Shown in pieces: positions 2 to 12,565 of a DNA stretch of 20,000 bases. A model generated the notes under the pieces. It was not told the origin of the DNA. It worked only from the letters and a program-made list of their open reading frames with translations, and ran no database searches. The position numbers and the translations under genes were made by a program. Source of the stretch: an uncultured virus (IMG/VR IMGVR_UViG_3300008262_000044) (lineage: Duplodnaviria > Heunggongvirae > Uroviricota > Caudoviricetes); IMG/VR virus record IMGVR_UViG_3300008262_000044. The stretch is one strand, 5' to 3'. Numbering within the stretch: position 1 is the first letter of the stretch; each line of letters opens with the position of its first letter.

Positions 2-3000
2 TCTTACTCTAAATACTCGTTCGTCAAGGATTTCAACAACCTCGTAGTCACCGTTATATCCAACAGTTATGGCACCACTAATTCTTACATCGGATTTAAT
101 TTGTAATCCGTGATCGTTATCATCGATGGTGATTGTTATTAAACTGTTTACGGCAGTTCCGTCTGCAACAATTCCTCTAATATCGTAGCTAGGTGCAAAA
201 AGAGCACCTGTAGTATACATTGCACCTTTACCAGACTGGTAACGAATATATTTTTTACTCATACGTACTGCTTGAGCACCATGACTTGGGGTGCCTGTGC
301 TTAATAACACACCTCCATCGAATGGTCTATGTAGGAAGAATGCATCAGTTCTTGGATAGATCAATCCAGTTATACCCGGCGATGTACCAATAAGTCCTGC
401 AGATCTTACGGTATATCTTAAAGTATTTTTAGTCGGAACATCTTCAACAAAGAAAGGTCCCGAAGCCAGTGCATGATTAGAACCGCCGGAACCAATAGCT
501 ACCGATATTGATGATCCGGGAGTTAATCCATGCCCGCTTGGAAATGTTACCAATATTTTTGCAATAGCACTATATGTTGTTGTAGTTCCATTTAATAATG
601 GACCGGATAGCCCGTCACTTATATCAATACTAGACAAGAATTGAACAGGGTCGCCAGTTGATCTTGCAGTTCCAGAGATAGTCGAAACTGATATAATACC
701 GCCACCTGCAGCAATTTGAGTCACTGATAAGATTAAATTTCTACTTTGGTTTCCTTCCCCGTCTAACAAATTCTCCGGAATTCTTATTAAATTTCCTACC
801 AAATATCCTGTCCCAGATTGGCTAAGTGTTATTCCTGTGTATGAACCAGAAACTCTATTCACGTTAAATGAAGCACCATTACCTATAGGCGTTTGTACAA
901 CTGCCGTTCCTCTAGCAATAAATCCTGTCGAGAACGATTGTCCAGCCGGTAGTGTACCGGTAATATTACTGGCACTTAAAATTCCGCCACCAGATGTAAT
1001 TGTAGCTACTCTAAATGTTATATCATTAGCAGGAGTAGCTCCTACAGCATCTGCTGGAAACGGATTCGACGTCGGAGTAAATGGGTCAGAATAAGTTGAC
1101 ACATTTCTTAATCTAGTTTCGTCAAAAAATGCATTAATTCCGCTAGTGCTACTAATATCAAATGTACCACCTAATGTCAATTGAGTATTTCCTTGATAGT
1201 TTGTAGTATCATTTGCTGTAGGACCTTCTTGTACCCCATTAAGCCATAGTTTTATTTCGTCACTTAATCTATTAACTGCAATGTGGATCCATTGGTTTAA
1301 TAACGTTCTTACATCGGTTGTGCCTGTTATTGTAATACTGTTAAGACTATTGCCAAAAACTAAATTGCCAGTGGTGCCATCAACATAGATCCACCAAGTA
1401 TTGTCAGTAGAAGTGTTTCTACGATCAACAATATAATTTGCGCCTGAGCCGCTAATAGTTTGGATATAAATGAATGTTTCAAAACTAAAATTCCCAAACG
1501 TATTATAATCATTACTGGCAGCGTATTGTATCATACCGCCAACAATCCTTGCTGTTTGAGCTGATGTTCTACCAAATTTTTTCTGACTGTAAGATAGGCC
1601 TACACCACTTGTAGATGGAGTAGTTCCATTATATAAGTTTTCAAAATCTATAGAATCTTGAGCTGTCCTACCTTCTGGAATATTAAATCTAGACAAAAAT
1701 CTTGTGCTAGCGTAAACTTCTAGGGTATCTCCACTAATTTTGCACAAATCATTTTGTACATAATTTTCGCCTTCGTAAATGGCTGTTGCAAATTCGTATT
1801 GATTTTGTGCATTAACTGTAAATCTTGAAATTGCGCCGGCGCCATCGCTGGCTATAGAAGTTCCTGCTAAATTCGTATAACTTGCATCAGATCCAACTAA
1901 TCTTGTAGTTCTTCCTGAAAGAAAACTTACAGTGTTCCCGCCCACTGAGCTAACTTCCATCGCTCTATTTGAACCATTATTGATAAGATGTCCTGGCAAA
2001 ACTCCATTAGCATCTAATAATGTAAAAGAGGTAGCTCCAACTTCAACGTTTTGTGTAGCAAACGCAGTCACAACTACTCCGCCAGATCCTCTTATCGCAG
2101 ATACCTGCGTACCTACATTATAAGCAGATGCGTTAACTAGGGTACTTATAACAAGGCTTGTGGATACACTGGTAGTATAAGCGCCAATACCGCCTGGGGT
2201 ATAAAATGACACTGTTGTATTGATATTACCTGTTAACGCTTTACTAAGAGTAATTGTTGTGCCAGCAATATTGTTTACAAAAGTACCTGGTTGAAGTCCA
2301 GCAATAGTTGTATTGTTGCCAGATATTAATTGTCCTATAACAATTTGAGCAGCAGAGTTAACTACAATTGTGCTCTGGCCACTGGTACCGGTTGCAGTTC
2401 TTTGAACTACAAAATCATTATTTCCGCCATACTGTTGTTCAGTAATTCTAGTTCCAACAGGCAATGAACCGCCAGTTAATCTTTGTCCAACTGCTATTCT
2501 TCCACTTACTAGAGAAGACGCAAATATTGTTGTTGCGCTTGATGTTGCTTGAAATTGAGCTGAGTTGCTAGTTAACGGATCACCGACTTGTGGGGCTGTC
2601 CCAGTGAAGGCAAGAGTATTTTCTCCTGCAACATAATCTAAATTTGTAATAAAACTACCGCTATTACCTTGAGAAGCTACAGAGAATGTCGGGCCACCAA
2701 TATTTGCTCCAGTATAAAATCCAGAAACACGCAACTGTGTATAGGATGTAGATAATACTTCTCCAGAGATTGAGCCAACTCTTGATTTACTAAAATAGGT
2801 AAAGGATGTTGCTGTTGGAGTAGTATTAACTAAAAAGGTTCCTTCAGCACGACTAAATCCAGTTACCGAGCTAGCTAACGCTTTAATACTAATTGGTGTT
2901 CCTGCTGTTAAAAAATGAGGACTAACACAATTTACTGTAATTATACTAGGGCCAATACTATTTGTAGTAGATGATGCATCAGTTGTTACTGAAACAACTA

Positions 3001-3970
3001 GAATATCACTACCCGGAATTTCGTATGTCGATGGATATCCTCTAGTTGTCGAAATGGCTTGCCATTTAGTAGGCTGCAATCCGTATTCAAAGTCAGCATC
3101 AAGCATGGCCTGCGGAGCAGCCATTCTTTGTCGCTCCATTGCATCAGTACCAAATTGATACGGTCTAGTTCTTAATTCGTTTTCATCAACAAAAATTTGA
3201 ATAGAATCTGTAGATGCATGTGTACTGGTATTGTAATATAAAGTTAATTGTGTATAACCCTGTGCCCATTCTAACAATCTCGGAAATATGTCAGTTTCGT
3301 CTCGAATAAATTCTCTTACAGCACCTGCAGTAGGGTCACTAAAATCATATATAATTTCGTTTTTAGTTGTATTGGTAATTAAAAGAATTTGATTTTGTTC
3401 ATATTTTTTAGGAAATTTAAGTCTACCAACTCCGGTAACTTCTGTTGGCAAGGCACCTAATCCATTTTCAATTACATTGGTTAAAATTCCAACAAGCTCG
3501 GTTACTCTCGCGGTAGTTCCATTCTCAGTTATTTTTCCGGGAATAATAGCCTGCGATACCACTGCCTGATACGATGGTGCTGCGGTATTAGTAAGAATAT
3601 ATGTGTTAATTATACCTCTTAAAAATATATGTGTTTGAATTTCTACCTGTCTATCGCCGTCAATTTGCGGAACATCATTTACCCAATATTTAGAAGATAC
3701 ACGACGAGTTTCTTCATTTCCGCCATATCTTAAATCAAACAAATATGCATCGATGATATATCCTACATCCCTTTCACATTTTTCAGAATTAAAAACATAC
3801 CCAACAAATGGAGCAATGTTTGCAGTAACCTGTGCATTGATGTATGCCGTTGCTTCCTTTTTTAAATAAGTTTTATTTGCAAGAAGCAAATCATATGCAT
3901 TTGGTCTTGCATTACTAAGATACGAAAGACCTGGTTTAAAACTGTATTCTCTAAGTTGAATTTTTGCCAT
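2..3970 (-). CDS. Large mosaic virion structural / receptor-binding protein (>1323 aa, 3' end beyond window); paralog of the 2471-aa protein; contains a LamG/ConA-like domain
   Basis: Not in the ORF track because its stop lies outside the window. Hand translation from ATG at 3970 (11 nt after the upstream TAA) gives MAKIQLREYSFKPG... open to position 2 (...ILDERVFRVR). Shares LLITNxTKNxIxxxFxD, DxDFEYGLQxTKW, AEGTFxV, HRPFDGGV and KYxRYQSGKG with the 2471-aa protein. Confidence 0.9.
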   Translation of the reverse strand, partial: MAKIQLREYSFKPGLSYLSNARPNAYDLLLANKTYLKKEATAYINAQVTANIAPFVGYVFNSEKCERDVGYIIDAYLFDLRYGGNEETRRVSSKYWVNDVPQIDGDRQVEIQTHIFLRGIINTYILTNTAAPSYQAVVSQAIIPGKITENGTTARVTELVGILTNVIENGLGALPTEVTGVGRLKFPKKYEQNQILLITNTTKNEIIYDFSDPTAGAVREFIRDETDIFPRLLEWAQGYTQLTLYYNTSTHASTDSIQIFVDENELRTRPYQFGTDAMERQRMAAPQAMLDADFEYGLQPTKWQAISTTRGYPSTYEIPGSDILVVSVTTDASSTTNSIGPSIITVNCVSPHFLTAGTPISIKALASSVTGFSRAEGTFLVNTTPTATSFTYFSKSRVGSISGEVLSTSYTQLRVSGFYTGANIGGPTFSVASQGNSGSFITNLDYVAGENTLAFTGTAPQVGDPLTSNSAQFQATSSATTIFASSLVSGRIAVGQRLTGGSLPVGTRITEQQYGGNNDFVVQRTATGTSGQSTIVVNSAAQIVIGQLISGNNTTIAGLQPGTFVNNIAGTTITLSKALTGNINTTVSFYTPGGIGAYTTSVSTSLVISTLVNASAYNVGTQVSAIRGSGGVVVTAFATQNVEVGATSFTLLDANGVLPGHLINNGSNRAMEVSSVGGNTVSFLSGRTTRLVGSDASYTNLAGTSIASDGAGAISRFTVNAQNQYEFATAIYEGENYVQNDLCKISGDTLEVYASTRFLSRFNIPEGRTAQDSIDFENLYNGTTPSTSGVGLSYSQKKFGRTSAQTARIVGGMIQYAASNDYNTFGNFSFETFIYIQTISGSGANYIVDRRNTSTDNTWWIYVDGTTGNLVFGNSLNSITITGTTDVRTLLNQWIHIAVNRLSDEIKLWLNGVQEGPTANDTTNYQGNTQLTLGGTFDISSTSGINAFFDETRLRNVSTYSDPFTPTSNPFPADAVGATPANDITFRVATITSGGGILSASNITGTLPAGQSFSTGFIARGTAVVQTPIGNGASFNVNRVSGSYTGITLSQSGTGYLVGNLIRIPENLLDGEGNQSRNLILSVTQIAAGGGIISVSTISGTARSTGDPVQFLSSIDISDGLSGPLLNGTTTTYSAIAKILVTFPSGHGLTPGSSISVAIGSGGSNHALASGPFFVEDVPTKNTLRYTVRSAGLIGTSPGITGLIYPRTDAFFLHRPFDGGVLLSTGTPSHGAQAVRMSKKYIRYQSGKGAMYTTGALFAPSYDIRGIVADGTAVNSLITITIDDNDHGLQIKSDVRISGAITVGYNGDYEVVEILDERVFRVR
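1058..1585 (-). other. LamG / concanavalin A-like lectin domain within the left giant protein
   Basis: Translation KKFGRTSA...GNFSFETFIYIQT...NQWIHIAVNRLSDEIKLWLNGVQ...FFDETRLRNVSTYSDPFTP matches the Laminin_G_3-type pattern (FTxExW, WxHxAxxR, LYxNG, IDExRI, YxxxFTP). Boundaries approximate. Confidence 0.75.
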
Positions 3971-3981
3971 ATTTTTTCTCT

Positions 3982-5049
3982 TTAACCACCTAATGCAATT
4001 GCTAATGCAGTTGCTTTTCTATTTGCATAAACTTTTGTTGCCACTAGCGTATTAGTTTCTGGTGCAGTTGTTTGTGTTGTACCATCATTAAATACAATTT
4101 CTGATACATAACCAGCCTTAAATCTATAACTTGGATTACCTAACGCATATTGATTATTTACTGCCGGTACTAACACATATCTTCTATCATTATCTAATAC
4201 ATTTGTGGTTGTTAAAACTAATTGACCTGCTCCTTTAGCAAATGCATCAGTTGAAATGACTAAAGAAGTTTGTCCAGTTACTGAGGTTCCATTATAACCA
4301 GATTGTCTCATGTTAATTCCGCCGCTGGCATCAAATGCAACATCAGTTTCAAAACCAGCAGATGGTTTAATTTTTCCACTAGATGTCTTTGTTAAAATAT
4401 TAGTTTCAATGTCAACACCGCCACTACCTATCCATATTTTATTAAATCTGTTAGTATTAGAACCAATTTGTAGTGTGTTGTTTGTAAAAGATAAAATATT
4501 ACCTTTATTTGTTTGATCGTAATTTAATCTAATAGGACTGTTTATTTCTAATGTTGTAGAATCTGATGCGCCAATTTGATTATTTTGAAAATAAAATCCT
4601 TCAATGCTAACTCGTTGATCGGCGTTAATAACAATCGATCCAGATTCTGTTATTTGTACAAGTCCACTACCTGATGAATTTTGAAGTTTAATTGATGTAG
4701 CATTAACTGTACTATGTAATAAAAAGTCGGTGCCGTCAAAACTTAAACTACCTGCATTTTGACTACTTGAATTTTTAAATTCAATTTTTTCGTTGCTTCT
4801 TACATCTAAATTTCCAACCAACGACGTAACTGCCGTAATTGTACCCAAGGTTACATTAGTTGTTGCACCACCAAGATTTGAAAGATCTGACCGTAATAAC
4901 TCAAAACCTCCACGAGTTTCGCCGTCGTATAATCTTAAAGTTTTTGAATCATAGTCATAGGTAATTTCGCCGCGAAATCCTTCCCTAAAAGTTTTTAAAC
5001 TAACAGGAAGTAATCTTAATCGAGCAGCAAGTATCTCACGTGTTGGCAT
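3982..5049 (-). CDS. Tail-fibre-like protein, 355 aa, with Mtd_N-like N-terminal motif and -ALAIALGG C-terminus
   Basis: ORF track. SD-like AAGGTGG upstream of ATG. N-terminal GFRGEITYDYDSKTLRLYDGETRGGFELLRSDLSN resembles the major-tropism-determinant N-terminal motif. Fibre motifs YALGNPSYRF and IVFNDGTTQTTA. Confidence 0.8.
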   Translation of the reverse strand: MPTREILAARLRLLPVSLKTFREGFRGEITYDYDSKTLRLYDGETRGGFELLRSDLSNLGGATTNVTLGTITAVTSLVGNLDVRSNEKIEFKNSSSQNAGSLSFDGTDFLLHSTVNATSIKLQNSSGSGLVQITESGSIVINADQRVSIEGFYFQNNQIGASDSTTLEINSPIRLNYDQTNKGNILSFTNNTLQIGSNTNRFNKIWIGSGGVDIETNILTKTSSGKIKPSAGFETDVAFDASGGINMRQSGYNGTSVTGQTSLVISTDAFAKGAGQLVLTTTNVLDNDRRYVLVPAVNNQYALGNPSYRFKAGYVSEIVFNDGTTQTTAPETNTLVATKVYANRKATALAIALGG

Positions 5050-5067
5050 GTTATCCCACCTTTTTAT

Positions 5068-5074
5068 TATTTAT
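5068..5074 (-). promoter_or_regulatory. Putative late promoter ATAAATA (T4 late-like)
   Basis: GATAAATA on the minus strand, 18 nt before ATG at 5049 and just downstream of the terminator. T4 late consensus is TATAAATA. Confidence 0.65.
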
Positions 5075-5088
5075 CATAATCAAAAGGT

Positions 5089-5121
5089 AACAAAAAACCC
5101 CACCTAAGTGGGGTTTTTGTT
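5089..5121 (-). terminator. Rho-independent terminator after the 2471-aa gene (potentially bidirectional)
   Basis: Minus strand reads AACAAAAACCCCAC-TTAG-GTGGGG-TTTTTT: GC-rich stem, 4-nt loop, U-tract, starting 2 nt after the TAA at 5124. A T-tract is also present on the plus strand. Confidence 0.9.
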
Positions 5122-5123
5122 GA

Positions 5124-8100
5124 TTAGGCCTGTGATTCTTTCCAAGTAATTCGCGCAGTAACTGATGTAACTGCCGAAGTATCTGTTGGAACCATACAAA
5201 CACTTAACACATCAGGACCGTTCGGGAATACATAGTCACCACCAAGTACAGAATTTCCTAGATCAACTAGTTCATTCAAATCTTGAACTGTGACGTTTCC
5301 AGCAGTTGATGCAGTTGCACGGAATTCATAAATTGTAACTCCGCCCACAATACTATCAGTTGCTTGTCCAGTATGTTTAATCACTTGAGTTAATGACGGT
5401 GTACCAAAGTTAGCAAAATATGCCTGTTGTGATAATGCACCGTTTAGAATCAATCTTACTGAAGCAGGTCTACTATTGGTATTTTGTACAACAATACCTA
5501 CCTGTTGTAATGTAATACTCATACGGTTGATAATATCTCGATCACCCAATGCGCCTACAATACTGCTGTCAACACTTGGTGCTAGACGTAGACTTAAAAT
5601 TGGAGTAATAGTTGTACCACTAGTGTTTGCAGGAATGCTAATAGTATCGCTACCACCAGAACCTGTTGCAAGAGTAAACAAGTATGCCTTATCATCTTCA
5701 AATGTTCCATCCATAATTACCGAAGCACCCCAGTGATATAAGCTTGGTGCGTAAGTTGGTGCAGCACCATTCTTAATCTCGTAACGAGCAGGTAAATTAC
5801 CAGATCTCATATATGCTTCTACTTCTCTATTATTATGAATAAACTCATGAACATAAATTACTTTTCCGTCCGGACCTTTAAATCCAAAACGTACTTTACC
5901 TGCACCGTACCATGAATAATCAATGTAGGCCATTTGCATACGATTAACGTCAAGTACAAAACCGCTAGGTCCAGTACCATCGCATTTATCAAGACTCCAA
6001 CTACTTTGATTAACCTTGGTATCAACAACTTTGGTAATAACTGCTCCAGATACTGTCACTCCTCTGTATCTTGGTGTAACATGTAATTCAGTGTTACTGA
6101 CTACAACTACTACTTTCATAGTCTGTCCTCTAATTACAATAACATCACCGGCTGCTAACTGCTTAGTGAAATTAGTATCGGAACCTGTGACTAATCTACC
6201 TCTATTATTAATTGCAGCAGTTCCTCCAAGTTGTCCAGTTGCACTTCTACGTACACAACCTAACGCTTGTCCGTTATATTCGTAGAATAGACCGTTCTGA
6301 TCATCAAACATACCAGCACGAACTAGAGCATCCGACCATTCAGTTACAAACAGATTTGGAAATCCGCCCGGTGTAAGATCACCAGGAACACCGTTTGTAG
6401 CATAACGGAAAGTGAAATCATCAACTACATCAAATACTGTAAAATATCCAAGTCCGCCTGCTGGAGTTGTATACGGAGTTGCTGATCCAGAACCAACAAC
6501 AACCTGTTCAATTTTGATTCTATTAGTTGCAACTAATTTATGCGGTCTACGTGTTTTAACTGTTGCATAAGTTGTACCGTCGTGTGTGATACGATTTACG
6601 TCAATACTTGGACTAAAGTTAACACCTGTAGAATATTGTAGCCCTTTACCAGATTGATAGCGGAAATACTTGCGTGTCTGACGTACAATACTTACGTTTG
6701 GACTAGTTGATGCATTAATCTCAACACCGCCATCAAATGGTCTATGTACATTAGTACAATCTGGACGTACATATAATTCAGTTTCCTGAATAATTGGTAA
6801 TGCTAATAACACACCGTTTCTAACGTTACTTCCCTGTTGACCAGTAAAGAATATCGTACCTGTTGGTGCATTAGTTGTCAGTGCACCAGTATTGTCATAT
6901 CTAATATAGCTAGAACCTAGTACTGTTGATGCAATCAAGTAATGTTGGAAACCAGTACCACGAGTTGTAATATCAACTGGTATCATTCTCAATGCATTAT
7001 CTTCGTTGGTTGCTAATTGAATGATATCCTTGGTTTTTCTAATTACATAATAGGAAGTACCATCAGTTAATCCAGCCATTACAGTACCACTGTTAGGTAA
7101 ACCAAAGGTATAAACCACTTTTGTACCAGTATATAAATTATGGTCTGGTAGATAAATTTCATCAGTGTCAAGATTAACAACATCAATTTGCAAGCTAGCC
7201 ACACCAACAAAACTGCCCTGTGGATTAAATTGAATTTGTCTAGCAGTAAACGGATCAGTTACAATCATTTCTTGATCGTTTACTACAGACAATACATTCA
7301 TTTCATAGGTTACGTTTTCAATAACTGCAAATCTATGAGCAGCGTTACCTGTTGGAGCTACTGCTGTAATATTTACTGCTGTTTGTGTAGCAACTGCGCC
7401 ACCACCACTACCGCCTTCGATAGCTTCAGCGTAGGTGTTGTGCAGAGTAATATTATTAGCGTCTTGTCTGTTAACATAGTAAATTCTATTAGCTACTAAT
7501 CCGCCAATTGGTGTTTGATACGAAGTAGCGCCAGCAGTGTTAATTACTTGACTTTGAGTACCAACAGCTGGAGTTGTTCCTGCATGATTTCCGCCAATTG
7601 CATCAATTTCATAACGCACTGCGTCACCTGTTAATAATCTGTGAGCGGTGATTGTAATTGTATCATTGGCAACACTTGGTGCAGTGTTTGCGTTAAAATA
7701 AATTGTACGTTTTGGAATTTGATTACTTACCTTAACAGTATTGCCGCCTCTATAACTTACTAGGAATCTAGTACTGTATGATGGTAATGTAGGCACTCTT
7801 AACCAACTTAAATTATCCAAGTTAGTGGTTAGTGATACAGGAACTTGGCTGGCGCCAGTGTTGGCACTAGTCAAACTCATAAAGTATGTGTTGTTATATA
7901 AAACAACGTCACCGTATACATAAGTATCACTGGCGTTCCACTCGCCTCTATAAATTGTTCCTCTTAGAGTCGGATTCGATACTTTAAACTGGTGAACAGT
8001 TCCCAATCCTACACCAACAAGATCAACTAAGTCTGTATTGGTATACGCACCAACCCAAGTGTTGTGTAGAGAGAAGTTGTTGGCCGCTGATGCGCCACCA

Positions 8101-11100
8101 CCGCCCCTAGGTGCACCAGATGCAGTATTATTAACAAAATACTGGCGTCCATCAACCAGACCGTTAATTACACGACCACCGGCCCATACTCTATAAATTA
8201 CTCTGTCACCAGTTACTAAACCGTGTGAAGTAAAATTAATACGATCCGATGAAGCTAACACTGTAGCTGCTGAGCTACCGTTAACAATTAAATCTCTGGC
8301 TACAATTGTTGCTAGTCCACCCGATAAGCTTTCGCCAAATACCTGATCTGTAGTAAATGTATGGGCTCCGGCACTTCCTAAACTTGCAAATCTAGTAATA
8401 GCAATTCCTGCCAATGCATTTGCTTTGGTAGTTGCTAATTGGAAACTGTCTAAACCGGTTCTAATTACATAATATGCAGTATTATTGATTAGACTATTAT
8501 AAGTGTTGTTACCTGTTGGAGGAACTGTACCTTCACCAATAGCGTTGGCTAATGCTCCTTTTGAGTAGGTTACTTTGGTACCAGTATTAAATCCATGATT
8601 TGTAATTTGGAATTCACCGGTTTCCATTTGTAGATAATCTGCAGGTTCAAAGTAGAATATTCTATTTGAAACTGTAGTACCTATCGGTAAAGCAATAGTA
8701 TTATTTCCAACGCTGGTAGCAGTATAACCGCCATCTAAAGTTCCAGTAGACGATACATCTTCAAAAGTATGGTCAATAGCACTGCTGGCTAAACCTTGGA
8801 TAGGAACAGCATTATAGAAATGTATAAATGTCCAGTTAGTACCTGCAGTTGTAATATCAATTGGGAATCCTGCATAAGCCAATGCCGGTGTCAATGCTAA
8901 TCCAAATGTATTCGCATTAAAGATAATTGCAAAATAAACTACACCGTTACCTGCGCTAACACCTGTAGCAACACCGCCTGTGGTTGCAGCAACAGTTACA
9001 GTTTCACCTGCTTTTAAGTTATGAGTAGTAACAGTCCACCAATCGTTGGTAGCATCACCGGCACCGGCTGTAAGTTGTCTACTACGTCCAGCTTCTGTTT
9101 CAAATAGTTGGAAACTTCCGTATAGTTTTTCAACTAATGCTCCTTCTACAATAGCAGCAGCAGTTGTTGCTCGTTGTGCTCTGGTAACTGTTAGTGTAGT
9201 ACCTGAAATGTTAGTAATTAAAATAAACTCGGTACCTACTTTAATAGTGTCACCTATTGCTAATCCAGTGTTGGTAGTAATTGTCAAACTAGTTGCAACA
9301 GCAGTTGCAGCACTTAATGTTCCAGATATATTCCATAGAATAGTATTATTAACATTTCTAACAATATATTGTGTGTTGTTAACAAGACCAGGGTATCCAG
9401 ACAGGCCGCTACCTAAATCAAGTCCGCCGTTATTTTTATAACGAATAACAGCACCATCAACAAACACCTGATCTTGAATAGGTACTACAAATCTGTTGGC
9501 GTAAATGTTTTGAACAAATGGTGCAGTAAATGCCATTGGTGTACAAGCATTAGTTGTTTGAACAATTCCGCTTAACTGTACTGTTGGGTTACCTGTTGGT
9601 AACGCAGCCGATAACAGATGAACCTTAAAGATATCATTGGTGATTGGAACCATGTAGTACTGACTACCGCTGGTCAATCCAGGAATAACCTGTGTAGGCT
9701 GTGTTAGATATGTACGAATTCTTGGCCAGTTAGCACCAGTTGCATCAGTTACTGTGTCAAATAGTGGACCAGGATAATCTGGGCCAGTAGGATATACACC
9801 CTGTGATGCAATTCCTGTAACTAAATCAGTGGATCCTGAAAGATTTCCAACACGTTGATTTGTCTGTACTCCGCCGTGATTTGCTAGGAAGAAGCTGTTG
9901 CTAAATGGATTTTCATCAATTGCGCAGCAGAAAAATCTTCCGCCACCCGTAACACCTGTGCCACCGACACCAGAGGTAATTGTACCGCCACTAAAGTCAA
10001 CTGGTGAGCCTGTAGGAGTTAAGCTAATAGAAAATTCTACAACACCGTCACCAGTCCATACATTTCTTACATAGTAATATTGAAAAGCACCAAAAGTATT
10101 GGCACTGGTAGTCACACCAGTTGGCGCAGATGAACCAGTACCTAATTTTAGAATAATTTTTTGTCCTTCGTAGATATTTGCTGGCACAGTTTGATATTGA
10201 GAGATAACACGATCACGTGCTGCTCCGCTTCCACCTGTTGCTGTTGCAGTAAATGTGTTTACAGTAAATCCTGGCTGAATACACATAAAACCGCCTGCAA
10301 TTGTGGTCAATGCACTAAAGTCAAGTTTACTACCAGAAGTTGCACTGGCGTAAGGTCCTGTTGCTACTGAAACGTTTTCACCCCAAAATAGTTCAAATGA
10401 GTCAGCGTCTACTCTATTGACAAAATAGATTGCATCACCTGTAGGAACGTTAGTTCCACCACTATTGGCTTGCCCATAGTTTTGAAAAATTACTGGCTCA
10501 CCAGTTTCTAAACCGTGATTTTTAATGTAGATTGCATCGCTATTGGCAGTAATACCGCAGTGTTGCAGAGTAAACCATTTACCAGTTTTAGATCTCCAAT
10601 CGTCAATAGACGCACGATGTCTATTCCAAAGCGGATCTTCATGTAGTTGTGCTCTAATACCGAATCCTGTTACAGCATCATATCTGTTAAAACTGGTTGT
10701 ACCATTGCCACCAGAATTTAATACAGTGTAAACTTGACTGGCAGTTGCATTGATATCAACACCAGCTGCATTGGTTGGTCCCTGCATTCTAAAAGTAGTG
10801 CCATTTCTATCAAAACTGGTAGAGATAACTCTAAATACACCGTTTAATGCTGCAACATCTGCCCCGCTAACTGTAATTTGCTGTTTAGGAAAAATATTAA
10901 GTCCTTGACATGTATTTCCAGCTGTTAATGTAACAATATAAACTGAAGTTGCATTAACTGATTCAATAGAAGCAATATTAGGAATTACATCAGTACCGCG
11001 TCTAAACAATGCAAATGTATGAGTACCTGATCCAATACCGTTAAAAACTAATTGACTTGTATCGGCATATGCATCTTTTGGGTTCATGTATAACTTGAAA

Positions 11101-12539
11101 GTATCTGGTCCTGTTACATTAACAAACATAAATTTGCCCAATGTAGCACTTACCGCAGTACCGTATTGTGGTATTTGACCACCAGCATAGTTGAACCATG
11201 TAGATGCATTAGCATTGACCTGAGGCAACACTCCAGCTGGGCTAACACCAACATAAGCCACCATGTCTCCAGTTACTAGACCGTGTTTAGCCATAGTAAT
11301 TACGCCTGTTGAAATGTTAATATCAAGCTGAGTAATATTTCTTCTGATTGAACCGGTGTGGAATGGCTCAGTTGGATTAAAATAGCCAGTTCCGTAACTG
11401 GTTGCTGTATATGATACCGCACTACCGTTGGTATTTGATTGACTGATTGTATACGTACCAGTACCGCCTACTCCAGTACCGAATGCAGTAATGATACAGC
11501 CCGGAGTAAATGTTCCACCAGTAATAACAGATCCAATAGTTAACACTCCACTGGTCAATACTGTAACGGTCAGTGTTGTTGTACTAGTAGTGGCTGTAAA
11601 CACAGCGTTTGTTCCTGCTAAAGTTATACGATCGTCAACTTCGCCTGTTCCTGTAGTTAAAGAAACTGGATTAAAATCTAATTTTAAATTAGCAAGACTG
11701 TTTACCAAATAGAATGTACTGTTTGCTGGAAAGCCATGTCTTTGTTCAGTGTAGGCTGTTAAGGTACTAGGATTAGAACCGTTAGTAACTAACATACCTG
11801 TGGTGTTTGCAACAGAATTATCTAAATCTACTTGCGATCCTACATAGAATCTACCCAATGTAATTGTTACATATGGAGTAAAAATACTAGCCGGAACGGC
11901 AACATTACCTGGTTGAACAGCACGAGCTTCGTAAGTGAATGTTAAATCTGTAGTTCTTTTAACTACAAATGTACCTTCAGCAGACGGAGAACCTACTCCT
12001 CTTACATCAATAGGAATACCAGTAACAATACCGTGTGCAACACTGGTTGTTACTGTTACAATTCTTGTACCACTGGTTGTGATGCCAACAATGTTTGTTA
12101 ACGGAGTATCACCTAAAATGCTATGGAACGCTGGAACTTCATTCATGCGCTCTACGGTTTCCCACTTGGTAGATTGCAAACCGTATTCAAAGTCCGTATC
12201 AATAAGTGTGTTTGGTTGTGAAACACGCATCTTAGATACAGGATCTGTAAATGTCGGGCTTGGTTCTATTTCGTTGAAATCTTGTTCAATGAAAATCTGT
12301 AGATTATCACCAGCAAGCATTGCTGCACAATCGTATTGTAAAACAAACGTAGTTGTATCGTTTGCAGTACTATAAGTTGCACTGATAATTTTCTTTGTAG
12401 TATCAGCAAAGTTAAACAAAATAATGTTTTTTGTAACGTTTGTGATTAACAACACCCTTTTAGGTGAAACGTTACCATCGACCGTGATAGAATCTGATCC
12501 CGGTGTAAATGTATAATTGAAAACTAGTGTCTTAGCCAT
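5124..12539 (-). CDS. Giant (2471 aa) mosaic virion structural / fibre-associated protein with many HxLxTGxxVxY repeat modules
   Basis: ORF track. AAGGA SD upstream. G/T/N/V-rich beta-type composition. Repeated HG(L/F)xTG(D/E/T)xVxY...YYV...FxL modules, one CBM5/12-like module and a C-terminal core (RYQSGKG...GMFDDQNG...DGTGPSG...IDYSWYGAG...YMRSGNLPARYEI...WKE). Confidence 0.9.
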   Translation of the reverse strand: MAKTLVFNYTFTPGSDSITVDGNVSPKRVLLITNVTKNIILFNFADTTKKIISATYSTANDTTTFVLQYDCAAMLAGDNLQIFIEQDFNEIEPSPTFTDPVSKMRVSQPNTLIDTDFEYGLQSTKWETVERMNEVPAFHSILGDTPLTNIVGITTSGTRIVTVTTSVAHGIVTGIPIDVRGVGSPSAEGTFVVKRTTDLTFTYEARAVQPGNVAVPASIFTPYVTITLGRFYVGSQVDLDNSVANTTGMLVTNGSNPSTLTAYTEQRHGFPANSTFYLVNSLANLKLDFNPVSLTTGTGEVDDRITLAGTNAVFTATTSTTTLTVTVLTSGVLTIGSVITGGTFTPGCIITAFGTGVGGTGTYTISQSNTNGSAVSYTATSYGTGYFNPTEPFHTGSIRRNITQLDINISTGVITMAKHGLVTGDMVAYVGVSPAGVLPQVNANASTWFNYAGGQIPQYGTAVSATLGKFMFVNVTGPDTFKLYMNPKDAYADTSQLVFNGIGSGTHTFALFRRGTDVIPNIASIESVNATSVYIVTLTAGNTCQGLNIFPKQQITVSGADVAALNGVFRVISTSFDRNGTTFRMQGPTNAAGVDINATASQVYTVLNSGGNGTTSFNRYDAVTGFGIRAQLHEDPLWNRHRASIDDWRSKTGKWFTLQHCGITANSDAIYIKNHGLETGEPVIFQNYGQANSGGTNVPTGDAIYFVNRVDADSFELFWGENVSVATGPYASATSGSKLDFSALTTIAGGFMCIQPGFTVNTFTATATGGSGAARDRVISQYQTVPANIYEGQKIILKLGTGSSAPTGVTTSANTFGAFQYYYVRNVWTGDGVVEFSISLTPTGSPVDFSGGTITSGVGGTGVTGGGRFFCCAIDENPFSNSFFLANHGGVQTNQRVGNLSGSTDLVTGIASQGVYPTGPDYPGPLFDTVTDATGANWPRIRTYLTQPTQVIPGLTSGSQYYMVPITNDIFKVHLLSAALPTGNPTVQLSGIVQTTNACTPMAFTAPFVQNIYANRFVVPIQDQVFVDGAVIRYKNNGGLDLGSGLSGYPGLVNNTQYIVRNVNNTILWNISGTLSAATAVATSLTITTNTGLAIGDTIKVGTEFILITNISGTTLTVTRAQRATTAAAIVEGALVEKLYGSFQLFETEAGRSRQLTAGAGDATNDWWTVTTHNLKAGETVTVAATTGGVATGVSAGNGVVYFAIIFNANTFGLALTPALAYAGFPIDITTAGTNWTFIHFYNAVPIQGLASSAIDHTFEDVSSTGTLDGGYTATSVGNNTIALPIGTTVSNRIFYFEPADYLQMETGEFQITNHGFNTGTKVTYSKGALANAIGEGTVPPTGNNTYNSLINNTAYYVIRTGLDSFQLATTKANALAGIAITRFASLGSAGAHTFTTDQVFGESLSGGLATIVARDLIVNGSSAATVLASSDRINFTSHGLVTGDRVIYRVWAGGRVINGLVDGRQYFVNNTASGAPRGGGGASAANNFSLHNTWVGAYTNTDLVDLVGVGLGTVHQFKVSNPTLRGTIYRGEWNASDTYVYGDVVLYNNTYFMSLTSANTGASQVPVSLTTNLDNLSWLRVPTLPSYSTRFLVSYRGGNTVKVSNQIPKRTIYFNANTAPSVANDTITITAHRLLTGDAVRYEIDAIGGNHAGTTPAVGTQSQVINTAGATSYQTPIGGLVANRIYYVNRQDANNITLHNTYAEAIEGGSGGGAVATQTAVNITAVAPTGNAAHRFAVIENVTYEMNVLSVVNDQEMIVTDPFTARQIQFNPQGSFVGVASLQIDVVNLDTDEIYLPDHNLYTGTKVVYTFGLPNSGTVMAGLTDGTSYYVIRKTKDIIQLATNEDNALRMIPVDITTRGTGFQHYLIASTVLGSSYIRYDNTGALTTNAPTGTIFFTGQQGSNVRNGVLLALPIIQETELYVRPDCTNVHRPFDGGVEINASTSPNVSIVRQTRKYFRYQSGKGLQYSTGVNFSPSIDVNRITHDGTTYATVKTRRPHKLVATNRIKIEQVVVGSGSATPYTTPAGGLGYFTVFDVVDDFTFRYATNGVPGDLTPGGFPNLFVTEWSDALVRAGMFDDQNGLFYEYNGQALGCVRRSATGQLGGTAAINNRGRLVTGSDTNFTKQLAAGDVIVIRGQTMKVVVVVSNTELHVTPRYRGVTVSGAVITKVVDTKVNQSSWSLDKCDGTGPSGFVLDVNRMQMAYIDYSWYGAGKVRFGFKGPDGKVIYVHEFIHNNREVEAYMRSGNLPARYEIKNGAAPTYAPSLYHWGASVIMDGTFEDDKAYLFTLATGSGGSDTISIPANTSGTTITPILSLRLAPSVDSSIVGALGDRDIINRMSITLQQVGIVVQNTNSRPASVRLILNGALSQQAYFANFGTPSLTQVIKHTGQATDSIVGGVTIYEFRATASTAGNVTVQDLNELVDLGNSVLGGDYVFPNGPDVLSVCMVPTDTSAVTSVTARITWKESQA

Positions 12540-12558
12540 TTATTTCTATCCTTTTTAA

Positions 12559-12565
12559 TATTTAT
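12559..12565 (-). promoter_or_regulatory. Putative late promoter ATAAATA overlapping the upstream stop codon
   Basis: GGA TAA ATA on the minus strand, 19 nt before ATG at 12539. Confidence 0.55.

What the first reader, a model, noticed from the sequence alone, without database searches (positions are those of the whole stretch)
230..12539. Two giant paralogs share one split core scaffold loaded with different cargo domains
Seen: both proteins have the same ordered anchors (MAK..YxFxPG, LLITNxTKN, QIF(I/V), TD....R...P...DxDFEYGLQxTKW, HRPFDGGV, KYxRYQSGKG, F(S/A)PSxD). Between TKW and HRPF the 2471-aa protein has about 1805 residues (W126 to H1932) and the left paralog about 910 (W303 to H1214), largely different in content: HGLxTG repeats plus a CBM-like module versus LamG plus other beta modules. 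Inference: from recollection, compact stand-alone phage proteins carry a 'DAFGRLRVS.P.TLFD' motif only tens of residues before 'RQT..YF.YQPGK', so these two segments would be adjacent strands of one beta-sandwich whose loop is an expansion site. That would make a scaffold-plus-cargo display system for receptor-binding modules, different from the usual C-terminal tip swapping of tail fibres.
Basis: partly seen in the sequence, partly recalled or inferred. Interest (0 to 1): 0.8.

Follow-up and report, generated by a model that had tools for sequence, protein, structure and literature searches.

The report
Phage jelly-roll protein split by giant inserts
Two neighbouring giant structural proteins of a marine T4-like cyanophage appear to be one small lectin-like beta-sandwich whose first strands are separated from the rest by 900 to 1,800 residues of variable modules, which suggests how such phages vary their surface proteins.

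Summary

- Compact 420-aa relatives (phrog_1645) carry the two motifs 63-66 residues apart.
- A profile of the compact family matches P0001 collinearly in four pieces. The 1795-aa insert falls in a 1-3-residue hairpin turn.
- The compact form folds confidently (pLDDT 90.9) as a GH16/ConA-like jelly roll (Z 17.5). In a full-length model of the 1095-aa S-PM2d173 homolog, the same glucanases align across residues about 104-900.
- A two-chain prediction docks P0001 residues 112-134 onto 1924-1959 as an antiparallel strand pair. The score is 0.63; the best control is 0.00.

Across 111 giant relatives the first insert spans 719-2692 aa. The flanks stay fully alignable.

The family is very large and sits in cyanomyovirus fibre/neck gene blocks. 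I found no description of this split core in print. The adhesin-display function is inferred, not shown. Carbohydrate-binding modules inserted into loops of 'evolved Dit' proteins are a known precedent, so this is a new variant of a known kind.

The parts
5124..12539 (-). P0001, 2471-aa virion structural protein of the S-PM2d173 family (phrog_5838)
   Evidence: ORF, translation. phrog_5838 E 3.4e-166 and phrog_1645 E 2.1e-52. Collinear with S-PM2d173.
12270..12539 (-). P0001 residues 1-90: small N-terminal beta domain (MAK..YxFxPG, LLITNxTKN, QIF)
   Evidence: Aligned across 16 relatives in A4. In the S-PM2d173 model the equivalent residues 1-89 form eight strands with block pLDDT 60-89. This domain is absent from the P0101 class, where FEYG sits at residue about 40.
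12141..12269 (-). P0001 residues 91-133: first strands of the jelly-roll core (TD..R..P...DxDFEYGLQxTKW)
   Evidence: Compact-family HMM positions 17-59, i-E 6.2e-6. hhalign A4 vs A1 gives probability 82.8%, E 9.3e-6. Residues 112-134 form the predicted interface with the C-terminal core.
6756..12140 (-). P0001 residues 134-1928: site-A insert (1795 aa of cargo) with eight HGLxTG-type modules (157-254, 407-508, 663-742, 1161-1238, 1303-1395, 1427-1518, 1622-1711, 1788-1867)
   Evidence: This is the gap between HMM positions 59 and 61. Modules are, where the profile was built from these copies; an independent match is P0101 326-403, E 1.6e-16. phrog_2885 gives 3 stretches. No Pfam family at E<=0.01.
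7878..7943 (-). CBM_5_12-like stretch inside the P0001 cargo (residues about 1533-1554)
   Evidence: PF02839 at 20.9 bits, below the 26.2 cut-off, E 3.7e-4 on the 81-aa piece. This is a lead only.
6621..6755 (-). P0001 residues 1929-1973: core segment 2 (HRPFDGGV ... RQTRKYFRYQSGKG)
   Evidence: HMM positions 61-105, i-E 4e-7. hhalign A5 vs A1 E 8.7e-55. Residues 1948-1956 pair with 124-131 in the complex prediction.
6324..6620 (-). P0001 residues 1974-2072: site-B insert (small beta module, ...RRPHKLVATNRIKI...)
   Evidence: This is the gap between HMM positions 105 and 116 and the gap in hhalign. Site B is 77-470 aa in 104 relatives.
6237..6323 (-). P0001 residues 2073-2101: core segment 3 (RAGMFDDQNGLFYEYNG..VRRS)
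   Evidence: HMM positions 116-144, i-E 1e-5.
6036..6236 (-). P0001 residues 2102-2168: site-C insert (small beta module)
   Evidence: This is the gap between HMM positions 144 and 146. phrog_1980 matches 2105-2166. The length is constant at 59-67 aa in 104 relatives.
5127..6035 (-). P0001 residues 2169-2471: rest of the jelly roll plus the C-terminal second beta domain, ending WKESQA
   Evidence: HMM positions 146-410, i-E 1.1e-47. BLASTP to HMO-2011 gp65: 38% identity, E 2e-25.
2..3970 (-). In-window part (residues 1-1323) of the paralog P0127 (1918 aa in full; it continues to contig position 19014)
   Evidence: phrog_5838 E 1.6e-96.
3401..3928 (-). P0127 residues 15-190: extra module inserted inside the N-terminal domain, between MAK..YSFKPG and ..LLITN
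   Evidence: Absent from P0001 and the S-PM2-like proteins (alignment A4). Matches internal parts of giant fibre families: phrog_4527 E 3.8e-10, phrog_701, phrog_5342. No Pfam hit.
3041..3181 (-). P0127 residues about 264-310: first strands of its jelly-roll core
   Evidence: HMM positions 13-79 on residues 264-332, i-E 9.2e-7.
332..3040 (-). P0127 residues about 311-1213: site-A insert (about 900 aa), with LamG at 820-954 (window 1109-1513)
   Evidence: This is the gap between HMM segments. PF13385 E 3e-9, above threshold. phrog_701, phrog_3545 and phrog_18802 match 783-991.
194..331 (-). P0127 residues 1214-1259: core segment 2 (HRPFDGGV ... KYIRYQSGKG)
   Evidence: HMM positions 64-108, i-E 4.1e-5. 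BLASTP E 9e-17.
3982..5049 (-). P0003, 355-aa ORF between the two paralogs, same strand, function unknown
   Evidence: Only a sub-threshold End_tail_spike match. No PHROG hit.
12562..15906 (-). P0004, 1114-aa tail-fibre-like protein directly upstream of P0001 (22-nt gap)
   Evidence: phrog_9851 tail fiber protein, 1031.5 bits. CBM_5_12 in 5 stretches, E 3.2e-47.

Best explanation
P0001 and P0127 are paralogous virion structural proteins of a T4-like cyanomyovirus, in the S-PM2d173 family.

Each is built on the same two-domain beta core that occurs uninterrupted in about 420-aa phage proteins (HMO-2011 gp65, phrog_1645). That core is a GH16/ConA-like jelly roll followed by a second beta domain. 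In the giants the polypeptide makes the first strands of the jelly roll and then leaves at the hairpin turn after the strand ...TKWE. It runs through 900-1800 residues of small beta modules and returns to complete the sandwich. Two shorter modules sit in later loops of P0001 (sites B and C).

Shown or predicted with controls: the homology, the collinearity, the position of the insertion sites, the fold class, and the docking of the N-terminal strand onto the C-terminal core.

Inferred:
- The conserved N-terminal domain plus the re-closed core forms one compact base that holds the protein in the virion. The gene lies in a fibre/neck block.
- The cargo loops out as a variable, probably glycan-binding adhesion array.
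- Host-range variation comes from gaining, losing or swapping modules at site A, and sometimes at B and D, without touching the base.

The core is probably not a GH16-type enzyme.
For: (1) Family. phrog_5838 E 3.4e-166 and 1.6e-96; phrog_1645 E 2.1e-52. tblastn finds 171 phage records, of which 128 are Synechococcus phage, 29 Cyanophage and 4 Prochlorococcus phage by first word of the name.

(2) Compact relatives have the motifs close together. The spacing is 63-66 aa in 198 of the 215 proteins in which both patterns were found; the other 17 are expanded forms (16) or one at 127 aa.

(3) Collinear profile matches. The HMM of 62 compact proteins hits P0001 at 91-133, 1929-1973, 2073-2101 and 2169-2469, covering HMM positions 17-59, 61-105, 116-144 and 146-410. 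The same order is seen in P0127, S-PM2d173 and the P0101 class. hhalign of the N pieces gives probability 82.8%, E 9.3e-6, ending at P0128 residue 57. hhalign of the C pieces gives E 8.7e-55, starting at P0128 residue 61.

(4) Fold. The compact model has pLDDT 90.9 and pTM 0.88, with strands 53-58 and 62-66 flanking the site. VIA-align gives 6t2o Z 17.5, rmsd 2.8, 193 aligned, model range 38..255; and 3i4i_A Z 17.4, rmsd 2.5, 178 aligned, model 37..254.

(5) Full-length S-PM2d173 model (pLDDT 81.2, pTM 0.76). The same chains align over a discontinuous span: 3dgt_A Z 15.8, rmsd 3.7, 219 aligned, model 104..900; 3i4i_A Z 15.6, rmsd 2.9, 193 aligned, model 115..898, chain 2..216.

(6) Two-chain prediction of P0001 1-135 with 1915-2471. 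The three runs score 0.38, 0.63 and 0.65, median 0.63; the best of 3 controls scores 0.00. This mark was reached by 116 of 157 solved complexes and 2 of 215 mismatched pairs. Those counts hold only roughly here, because my own alignments were used. The runs agree in at least 29% of contacts and the partner's pLDDT is at least 63. The interface is residues 112-134 against 1924-1959 plus 2270-2274 (WGASV). The pairings 124-131 with 1949-1956 follow an antiparallel ladder.

(7) Variation. In 111 of the 120 listed giant relatives, site A is 719-2692 aa (median 1227). Site B is 77-470 aa and site C 59-67 aa, both n=104. Against 119 relatives, P0001's N part aligns over a median 100% at 57% identity and its core over 97% at 54%, but site A over only 31% at 37%.

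(8) Context. The genes form a run P0004 (tail-fibre-like) - P0001 - P0003 - P0127 with 22-, 74- and 11-nt gaps. Neck-type, sheath-stabiliser, sheath, tube and terminase genes lie on the same contig. In S-BM3 the homolog sits next to the gp13 neck gene. Passages of PMC9910659 call S-PM2d175, two genes from S-PM2d173, part of a block that may encode adhesin components.
Against:
- In the S-PM2d173 model the decisive N-terminal stretch 92-130 has low confidence (block pLDDT 44-55).
- The complex prediction is a model's own confidence. GH16/ConA-like sandwiches are abundant among solved structures, so it may complete a familiar fold from memory. One of its three runs scored only 0.38.
- The N-terminal piece alone matches the compact profile modestly (i-E about 1e-5 to 1e-6 per protein).
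- A coupling analysis found no N-strand-to-core pairs among the giants (0 of the top 60, Neff 66).
- 106 of the 120 shorter hits lack the N-strand segment. One of them, P0012, 557 aa on a 42-kb contig, starts exactly at the core. I could not tell fragments from genuine forms that do without the N strand.
- Nothing here shows where the protein sits in the virion, its oligomeric state, or that any cargo module binds a host molecule.
- The HGLxTG modules have no assigned function.
Confidence: 0.7

Rival explanations
1. Linear fibre. The N-terminal 135 residues form an autonomous virion-attachment domain, the long middle is a shaft, and the C-terminal sandwich is a distal head that folds without the N-terminal strands. 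On this view the likeness of the FEYGLQxTKW stretch to the start of the compact proteins is a relic of the insertion event.
For: This is the usual layout of phage fibres (established knowledge). The S-PM2d173 model is unsure about residues 92-130. Many database hits begin downstream of the N strand (106 of 120). The neighbours are fibre-like proteins.
Against: The FEYG.Q.TKW block is invariant in all 45 rows of A3 and all 16 rows of A4. It docks on the core with score 0.63 against controls of 0.00. GH16 chains align to the S-PM2d173 model from residue about 104-118 onward, not from 314. Without these strands the sandwich would lack the part that aligns to the first residues of the glucanases: chain 2.. 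in 3i4i_A.
Confidence: 0.12
2. Strand exchange between subunits. The N-terminal strands complete the jelly roll of a neighbouring copy rather than their own, so the long insert acts as a tether that links subunits into an oligomer or chain.
For: The two-chain prediction shows only that the pieces fit, not that they belong to the same chain. A linker of 900-2700 aa would allow either arrangement.
Against: Compact relatives close the fold within one chain through a 1-3-residue turn. In S-PM2d173 the insert is only about 170 aa and the single-chain model closes on itself. The oligomeric state was not tested.
Confidence: 0.1
3. The conserved core is an active GH16-type glycanase (a depolymerase), and the inserted modules only steer it to its substrate.
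For: The best structural matches are GH16 glucanases, agarases, carrageenases and porphyranases, Z 14-17.5. The compact form reads MDIEWLG, which resembles the GH16 active-site strand as I recall it.
Against: No ExDx(x)E pattern occurs in the cores of P0001, P0127, S-PM2d173, P0128 or P0151: 0 of 5. P0001 reads IDYSWYG where the compact form has MDIEWLG. Lectins of the same fold also match, for example ERGIC-53 Z 14.0 and Emp47p Z 13.8. That this strand is equivalent to the GH16 catalytic strand is recalled, not tested.
Confidence: 0.05
4. Artefact. The giant ORFs result from mis-assembly or from reading through separate genes.
For: One database relative (P0119) carries an internal duplicated block that looks like an assembly error.
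Against: 472 proteins of 1359-4325 aa match the N-terminal 140 residues at E<=0.001. Of the 120 listed, 111 have the N strand and the core in one frame, including relatives on contigs of 115-350 kb. Cultured phages S-BM3 and S-PM2 carry annotated homologs.
Confidence: 0.01

Closest known systems
S-PM2d173-type 'virion structural protein' of cyanomyoviruses (phrog_5838; Synechococcus phages S-PM2, S-BM3, S-RIM44 and others)
   Same: Same family and same order of anchors. BLASTP of P0001 vs S-PM2d173 gives three collinear pieces, E 6e-28, 9e-79 and 6e-29. The insertion sites A, B and C are the same.
   Different: The site-A insert is about 170 aa in S-PM2d173, against 1795 aa in P0001 and about 900 aa in P0127. 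S-PM2d173 has a large site-D insert (645-867) that P0001 lacks. Two paralogs lie side by side here.
Compact ~420-aa 'virion structural protein' (phrog_1645; Puniceispirillum phage HMO-2011 gp65, S-RIM2 W1130709_103)
   Same: The same two-domain core by profile: hhalign E 8.7e-55 for the C part and E 9.3e-6 for the N part. The family is large, with 6235 representative clusters at E<=0.001.
   Different: The core is uninterrupted. It has no N-terminal LLITN domain and no cargo. Expanded members among the top 150 representatives mostly carry N-terminal extensions with the core in one stretch.
'Evolved' Dit and Tal proteins of siphophages of Gram-positive bacteria
   Same: They work alike: carbohydrate-binding modules are inserted into a conserved structural protein. 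This is from the abstracts of PMC7533335 and PMC8540738 in the listing. That the insertion point is a loop of the galectin-like domain is recalled. A CBM2 module of the phage J-1 evolved Dit is itself a fold match to the compact core (5ly8_A, Z 13.8, rmsd 3.4, 195 aligned).
   Different: There is no sequence relationship: no Dit family appears among the PHROG or Pfam hits. The phage type is different (myovirus of cyanobacteria). The inserts are several times to over ten times longer and are made of many modules. The host scaffold here is the jelly roll itself, cut after its first strands.
GH16 glycoside hydrolases and ConA-like lectins
   Same: The fold of core residues 24-258 of the compact form: Z 17.5 to 12.6 over the 50 listed chains.
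   Different: Sequence identity is 3-13%. There is no Pfam match and no ExDx(x)E motif. A second beta domain follows the jelly roll.
C-terminal receptor-binding domain of mycobacteriophage TM4 gp23 (PDB 9n6a)
   Same: Top Foldseek match in the PDB, E 4.8e-7. VIA gives Z 12.8, rmsd 3.4, 183 aligned. It is a ConA-like domain used by a phage for receptor binding, according to the entry title.
   Different: TM-score is only 0.32-0.35 over the whole model. It is an ordinary C-terminal head, not a split one.

Membership tests
phrog_5838 (S-PM2d173-like virion structural protein) | Significant match to the family profile | tested here: met
   P0001 E 3.4e-166 (3 stretches). P0002, the in-window part of P0127, E 1.6e-96. 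S-PM2d173 itself scores 1841 bits over profile positions 1-1106.
phrog_5838 (S-PM2d173-like virion structural protein) | Same order of N-terminal domain, FEYG.Q.TKW strand, HR.FDGG/RYQSGKG segment, and C-terminal W.E[AS]QA end | tested here: met
   BLASTP gives three collinear pieces. The columns are invariant in A3, 45 sequences. The ends read WKESQA, WGEAQA and WTEAQA.
phrog_5838 (S-PM2d173-like virion structural protein) | Presence in the virion | not testable with these tools
   The 'virion structural protein' label comes from the GenBank records. The proteomic paper on S-PM2 (Clokie et al. 2008) was seen only as a reference in PMC2984593, not read.
phrog_1645 (compact ~420-aa core) | Match to the whole profile in order | tested here: met
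   My HMM of 62 members covers positions 17-410 of 411 in P0001, in four collinear pieces. phrog_1645 gives E 2.1e-52, best stretch 2171-2469.
phrog_1645 (compact ~420-aa core) | Core contiguous in sequence | tested here: not met
   The core is interrupted by 1795, about 99 and 67 residues in P0001. P0001 is therefore an expanded derivative, not a plain member.
GH16 / ConA-like lectin-glucanase fold | Beta-jelly-roll sandwich superposable on members | tested here: met
   This was tested on models of relatives, not of P0001 itself. Compact model Z 17.5, rmsd 2.8, 193 aligned. S-PM2d173 model Z 15.8, rmsd 3.7, 219 aligned.
GH16 glycoside hydrolase (enzyme family) | Catalytic ExDx(x)E motif (recalled definition) | tested here: not met
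   The pattern is absent from the cores of 5 of 5 proteins checked.
GH16 glycoside hydrolase (enzyme family) | Sequence membership (Pfam) | tested here: not met
   No Pfam family at E<=1 other than chance-level rows for P0128, P0151 and P0006. None for P0001 at E<=0.01.
Evolved Dit (distal tail protein with inserted CBMs) | Dit belt and galectin-like domains recognisable by sequence | tested here: not met
   No Dit family appears among the PHROG or Pfam hits of P0001 or P0002. The likeness is in how it works only.
T4 fibritin (wac) / short tail fibre gp12 | Sequence similarity to wac or gp12 | tested here: inconclusive
   No such family is listed among the PHROG hits of P0001 or P0002. The 176-aa N-terminal module of P0127 hits phrog_4527, labelled 'short tail fiber protein', at an internal position. 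The similarity of gene position to wac is recalled T4 gene order.

The most novel reading that the evidence does not exclude
The protein is a closed-loop fibre. An array of up to about 2,700 residues of beta modules has both ends clamped into one jelly roll by strand complementation, either within a chain or between neighbouring subunits. This would be a topology not described for phage fibres. On this reading the hairpin after ...TKWE is a general, evolutionarily proven 'socket' into which arbitrary binding modules can be plugged without disturbing virion attachment. The same core in podoviruses, haloarchaeal tailed viruses and giant viruses would then be the unloaded socket.
Probability: 0.2. 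Interest if true: 0.8.

Novelty: new variant of a known kind. Interest (0 to 1): 0.6.

Why it matters
- Cyanomyoviruses lack recognisable T4 fibre genes (wac, g10-g12, g34-g37; passage of PMC2984593). Their host-recognition proteins are therefore mostly unassigned.
- This work turns an abundant family of 'virion structural proteins' of unknown build into a defined architecture: a conserved base plus loop-borne cargo. It covers 472 giant forms at E<=0.001, thousands of C-core hits and 6235 compact representative clusters.
- It gives exact domain boundaries for expression, for structure work, and for comparing cargo with host range in marine Synechococcus and Prochlorococcus phages.
- It also offers a natural example of a beta-hairpin that appears to tolerate inserts of 170 to 2,700 residues, which is of interest for protein engineering and phage display.

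Tried and rejected
- **Deletion construct.** I replaced it with a full-length fold of the short-insert homolog and a two-chain prediction.
- **PDB by sequence.** phmmer of P0001 and the profile of A1 each gave 0 hits at E<=1.
- **Pfam.** No match on P0001 at E<=0.01 and none on the compact proteins.
- **megablast.** The window against 50,697 phage records gave no match.
- **Coupling analysis** (mutual information with APC correction) between the N strand and the core. With all 407 sequences, the 16 cross pairs in the top 60 all involve a few columns that separate compact from giant forms, so I read them as subfamily signal. With the 145 giants (Neff 66), 0 of the top 60 were cross pairs. The analysis is uninformative.
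- **T4-type late promoter** TATAAATA: 0 matches in the window, against 3.2 expected by chance.
- **P0004 vs S-PM2d175:** no similarity (best E 2.3), so the neighbouring genes are not the same as in S-PM2.
- **P0003 vs P0004:** only the last 13 residues resemble each other (E 1.5).
- **ESM Atlas** on P0128 gave only 'virion structural protein family' clusters and no structure search.
- **HFTV1 cryo-EM paper** (PMC12494034, passages only): the passages I saw did not mention the 418-aa HFTV1 protein that resembles the core in BFVD.
- **Literature searches** for the family or its architecture found nothing specific. Supplements were not opened.
- **Earlier findings of this scan:** none for this genome.
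- **Second domain.** The fold of the core's second domain (compact residues 259-419) was not searched on its own, so I make no claim about it.


Full report
**Where the window lies.** The window is bases 20801-40800 of a 40.8-kb IMG/VR viral contig. PHROG scans of the rest of the contig find the gene set of a T4-like myovirus: tail sheath, tail tube, large terminase, head-closure and neck-type proteins, and a sheath stabiliser. GC is 33-41%. A tblastn of P0001 against 50,697 phage records hits 171 records. By first word of the name, 128 are Synechococcus phages, 29 Cyanophage and 4 Prochlorococcus phage. megablast finds no near-identical record.

**The observation.** Two long minus-strand ORFs are present.
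- P0001 is 2471 aa (window 5124-12539).
- The left paralog starts at 3970 and leaves the window. In full it is 1918 aa (P0127).

BLASTP gives E 2e-27 for the N-terminal block and E 9e-17 for the HRPFDGGV..RYQSGKG block. Only 11% of P0001's insert aligns to P0127, against 80% of the N part and 88% of the core.

The four genes P0004, P0001, P0003 and P0127 follow each other with gaps of 22, 74 and 11 nt. P0004 is fibre-like (phrog_9851) with five CBM_5_12 stretches.

**Family.** Both proteins match phrog_5838, the S-PM2d173 'virion structural protein', at E 3.4e-166 and 1.6e-96. P0001 also matches phrog_1645, a 440-position profile, with its last 300 residues. S-PM2d173 (1095 aa) is collinear with P0001 in three BLAST pieces. 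S-BM3 has a 2087-aa homolog next to the gp13 neck gene. Neither Pfam nor PDB sequence searches recognise the conserved parts.

**The compact relatives.** HMO-2011 gp65 (419 aa) is a phrog_1645 member. It aligns to P0001 in three collinear pieces: 17-48 with 89-120, 69-100 with 1936-1967, and 149-295 with 2171-2324.
- The family is very large. All 8000 scored candidates passed E<=0.001 in the word-indexed search, and 6235 representative clusters did in the exhaustive one.
- Both motif patterns were found in 215 of the 397 proteins then held. In 198 of these the spacing is 63-66 residues. The other 17 are S-PM2d173 (242) and P0119 (245), a class of 1224-1314-aa proteins (594-704), P0001 (1860) and one protein at 127.
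- My pattern missed P0127.

**Where the inserts sit.** An HMM of 62 compact proteins (A1) matches P0001 as follows:

| P0001 residues | HMM positions |
|---|---|
| 91-133 | 17-59 |
| 1929-1973 | 61-105 |
| 2073-2101 | 116-144 |
| 2169-2469 | 146-410 |

The same order holds in P0127, S-PM2d173, P0119 and the P0101 class. Profile-profile comparison agrees. The N-terminal pieces (A4) end at P0128 residue 57 (probability 82.8%, E 9.3e-6). The C-terminal pieces (A5) begin at residue 61 (E 8.7e-55).

There are therefore three insertion sites in P0001: A (1795 aa), B (about 99 aa) and C (67 aa). S-PM2d173 has a fourth, site D (645-867); I infer one in P0127 from reading its sequence.

P0127 also carries a 176-aa module inside its N-terminal domain. 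That module matches internal parts of giant fibre families (phrog_4527, E 3.8e-10).

**Fold.**
- The compact protein P0128 folds with pLDDT 90.9 and pTM 0.88. Site A lies between strands 53-58 and 62-66.
- Residues 24-258 are a GH16/ConA-like jelly roll. The best chain is 6t2o at Z 17.5, rmsd 2.8, 193 aligned. The lichenase 3i4i_A gives Z 17.4, model 37..254, chain 2..216. Foldseek agrees and ranks the TM4 gp23 receptor-binding domain first.
- In BFVD, predicted structures of uncultured Caudovirales, haloarchaeal tailed viruses and giant viruses superpose with TM 0.65-0.91 for ranks 1-20 apart from ranks 15 and 19 (0.61 and 0.49). Several targets of about 900-1500 aa are aligned over far more columns than the query has residues.
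- No ExDx(x)E motif is present in 5 of 5 cores checked. A GH16-type catalytic activity is therefore unlikely.

**Does the N strand rejoin the core in the expanded forms?**

*First test.* I folded the whole S-PM2d173 with a 45-row alignment. The model has pLDDT 81.2 and pTM 0.76, but residues 92-130 are poorly defined, with block pLDDT 44-55. Even so, the same glucanases align to it over a span from residue about 104-118 to about 898-904. Examples are 3dgt_A (Z 15.8, 219 aligned) and 3i4i_A (Z 15.6, 193 aligned, model 115..898, chain 2..216). Rows with the low-confidence parts trimmed start at 118-122. One sandwich of about 200 residues is thus assembled from pieces spread over 800 residues, and it includes the N-terminal strands.

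*Second test.* I ran P0001 residues 1-135 and 1915-2471 as two chains with controls.
- The scores are 0.38, 0.63 and 0.65, median 0.63. The best of three controls is 0.00.
- The mark was reached by 116 of 157 solved complexes and 2 of 215 mismatched pairs. These counts hold only roughly here, since my own alignments were used.
- The runs agree in at least 29% of contacts, and the partner's pLDDT is at least 63.
- The interface is exactly the conserved block, 112-134 (LIDTDFEYGLQSTKWETVERMNE). It touches 1924-1959 and 2270-2274 (WGASV).
- The low-error pairs form an antiparallel ladder between TKWETVER (124-131) and VSIVRQTR (1949-1956), directly before KYFRYQSGKG.

No member of the family is solved. 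The fold class is common, however, so the model may be completing a familiar sandwich. This is support, not proof.

**How variable is the cargo?** The N-terminal 140 residues find 472 proteins of 1359-4325 aa at E<=0.001.
- Of the 120 listed, which include the window's own protein, 111 have both the N strand and the first core piece.
- In these, site A is 719-2692 aa (median 1227).
- Site B is 77-470 aa (median 88, n=104), and site C is 59-67 aa (n=104).
- The lower bound of site A is set by the length filter of the search.
- Smaller inserts exist: about 155-170 aa in S-PM2d173 and P0119, and about 500-640 aa in 12 proteins of the P0101 class. That class lacks the LLITN domain.
- Against 119 relatives, P0001's N part and core align over a median 100% and 97% of their length, at 57% and 54% identity. 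Site A aligns over 31% at 37%.
- Among apparent orthologs of 2466-3081 aa the cargo is conserved but diverges faster: 47-88% identity, against 64-94% for the N part and 68-93% for the core.

**What the cargo is.**
- P0001 has eight ~90-aa HGLxTG modules. The profile was built from them, so the only independent evidence is matches in P0101, E 1.6e-16 and 5.9e-5.
- P0001 also has a sub-threshold CBM_5_12 stretch and a weak endosialidase beta-barrel hit, E 0.033.
- P0127 has a LamG domain above threshold.

The cargo is thus made of beta modules of kinds that often bind glycans. No binding was tested.

**Likely mechanism.** Shown or predicted with controls: a conserved base, made of the N domain plus the re-closed two-domain core, and loop-borne variable modules at defined hairpins.

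Inferred:
- The base anchors the protein in the virion.
- The cargo mediates adhesion.
- Diversification proceeds by changing modules at sites A, B and D.

The very high conservation of the compact form (about 70% identity over the 120 listed hits) fits a structural partner better than a rapidly evolving receptor site.

The gene's neighbours are fibre-like, and neck and sheath genes lie nearby. Cyanomyoviruses lack recognisable wac, g10-12 and g34-37 (passage of PMC2984593). The S-PM2d173-175 block has been called a possible adhesin block (passages of PMC9910659).

**Comparison with what is known.**
- The protein is a member of phrog_5838.
- It is an interrupted derivative of phrog_1645.
- It shares the fold, but not the defining motif, of GH16.
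- It works like the 'evolved' Dit and Tal proteins, which carry inserted carbohydrate-binding modules (abstracts), but it is unrelated to them by sequence.

Four literature searches found no description of this split core. I rate it a new variant of a known kind, interest 0.6.

**Open points.**
- The single-chain deletion construct was not folded.
- 106 of 120 shorter database hits lack the N strand. I could not tell whether they are fragments or true forms.
- Virion location, oligomeric state, and closure within one chain versus between chains are untested.

Noticed in passing
window 3982-4020 and 12562-12600 (minus strand): P0003 and P0004, the two non-paralogous genes of the block, both end in ...A(L/I)ALGG just before the stop. 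Nothing else in them aligns: 8 of 13 identical residues, E 1.5.
   Followed up: partly
window 12562-15906 (minus strand): P0004 (1114 aa) is a fibre-like protein (phrog_9851, 1031 bits) with five CBM_5_12 stretches in its first half. It is not similar to S-PM2d175, which occupies a comparable position in S-PM2 (best E 2.3).
   Followed up: partly
window 16651-18162 and 18282-19775 (minus strand): Two ~500-aa ORFs both match the same repeat-containing families (phrog_6005 and several unknown-function PHROGs with ~60-aa stretches). They look like another pair of paralogs built from repeated modules.
   Followed up: no
L006:14201-14728 (window 3401-3928), P0127 residues 15-190: A 176-aa module is inserted inside the small N-terminal domain of P0127 only. 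It matches internal positions of giant fibre families (phrog_4527, E 3.8e-10).
   Followed up: partly
protein P0012 (557 aa, on a 42-kb metagenome contig): This relative (63% identical to the P0001 core) starts with M exactly at ...VRPSCLNIHRPFDGG, the point where the core resumes after site A. It could be a natural two-gene form or a broken gene call. The flanking DNA could not be fetched.
   Followed up: no
protein P0119 (1123 aa): An S-PM2d173-like protein with an exact internal repeat of about 110 residues that includes the HRAFDGG..RYQSGKG segment. It is probably an assembly duplication.
   Followed up: no
proteins P0092, P0101, P0103, P0106, P0109, P0110, P0113, P0116, P0118, P0120, P0125, P0126: A separate class of 1224-1306-aa relatives, on contigs up to 527 kb, has the FEYG strand at residues 36-40 with no LLITN domain, and a site-A insert of about 500-570 aa. 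The N-terminal domain is therefore dispensable for the split core.
   Followed up: partly
BFVD matches of model m406bf1b5c1bf: The two-domain core superposes (TM 0.65-0.81) on uncharacterised proteins of haloarchaeal tailed viruses (HGTV-1, HHTV-1, HHTV-2, HFTV1) and of giant viruses (Bodo saltans virus, a Mimivirus relative, Pyramimonas orientalis virus), and at TM 0.61 on a Pithovirus protein. This range is far wider than the sequence family suggests.
   Followed up: no
L006:472-3828 (contig 10472-13828, minus strand): The tail sheath gene encodes 1118 aa and matches a 915-position sheath profile end to end, so it too seems to carry extra inserted material.
   Followed up: no
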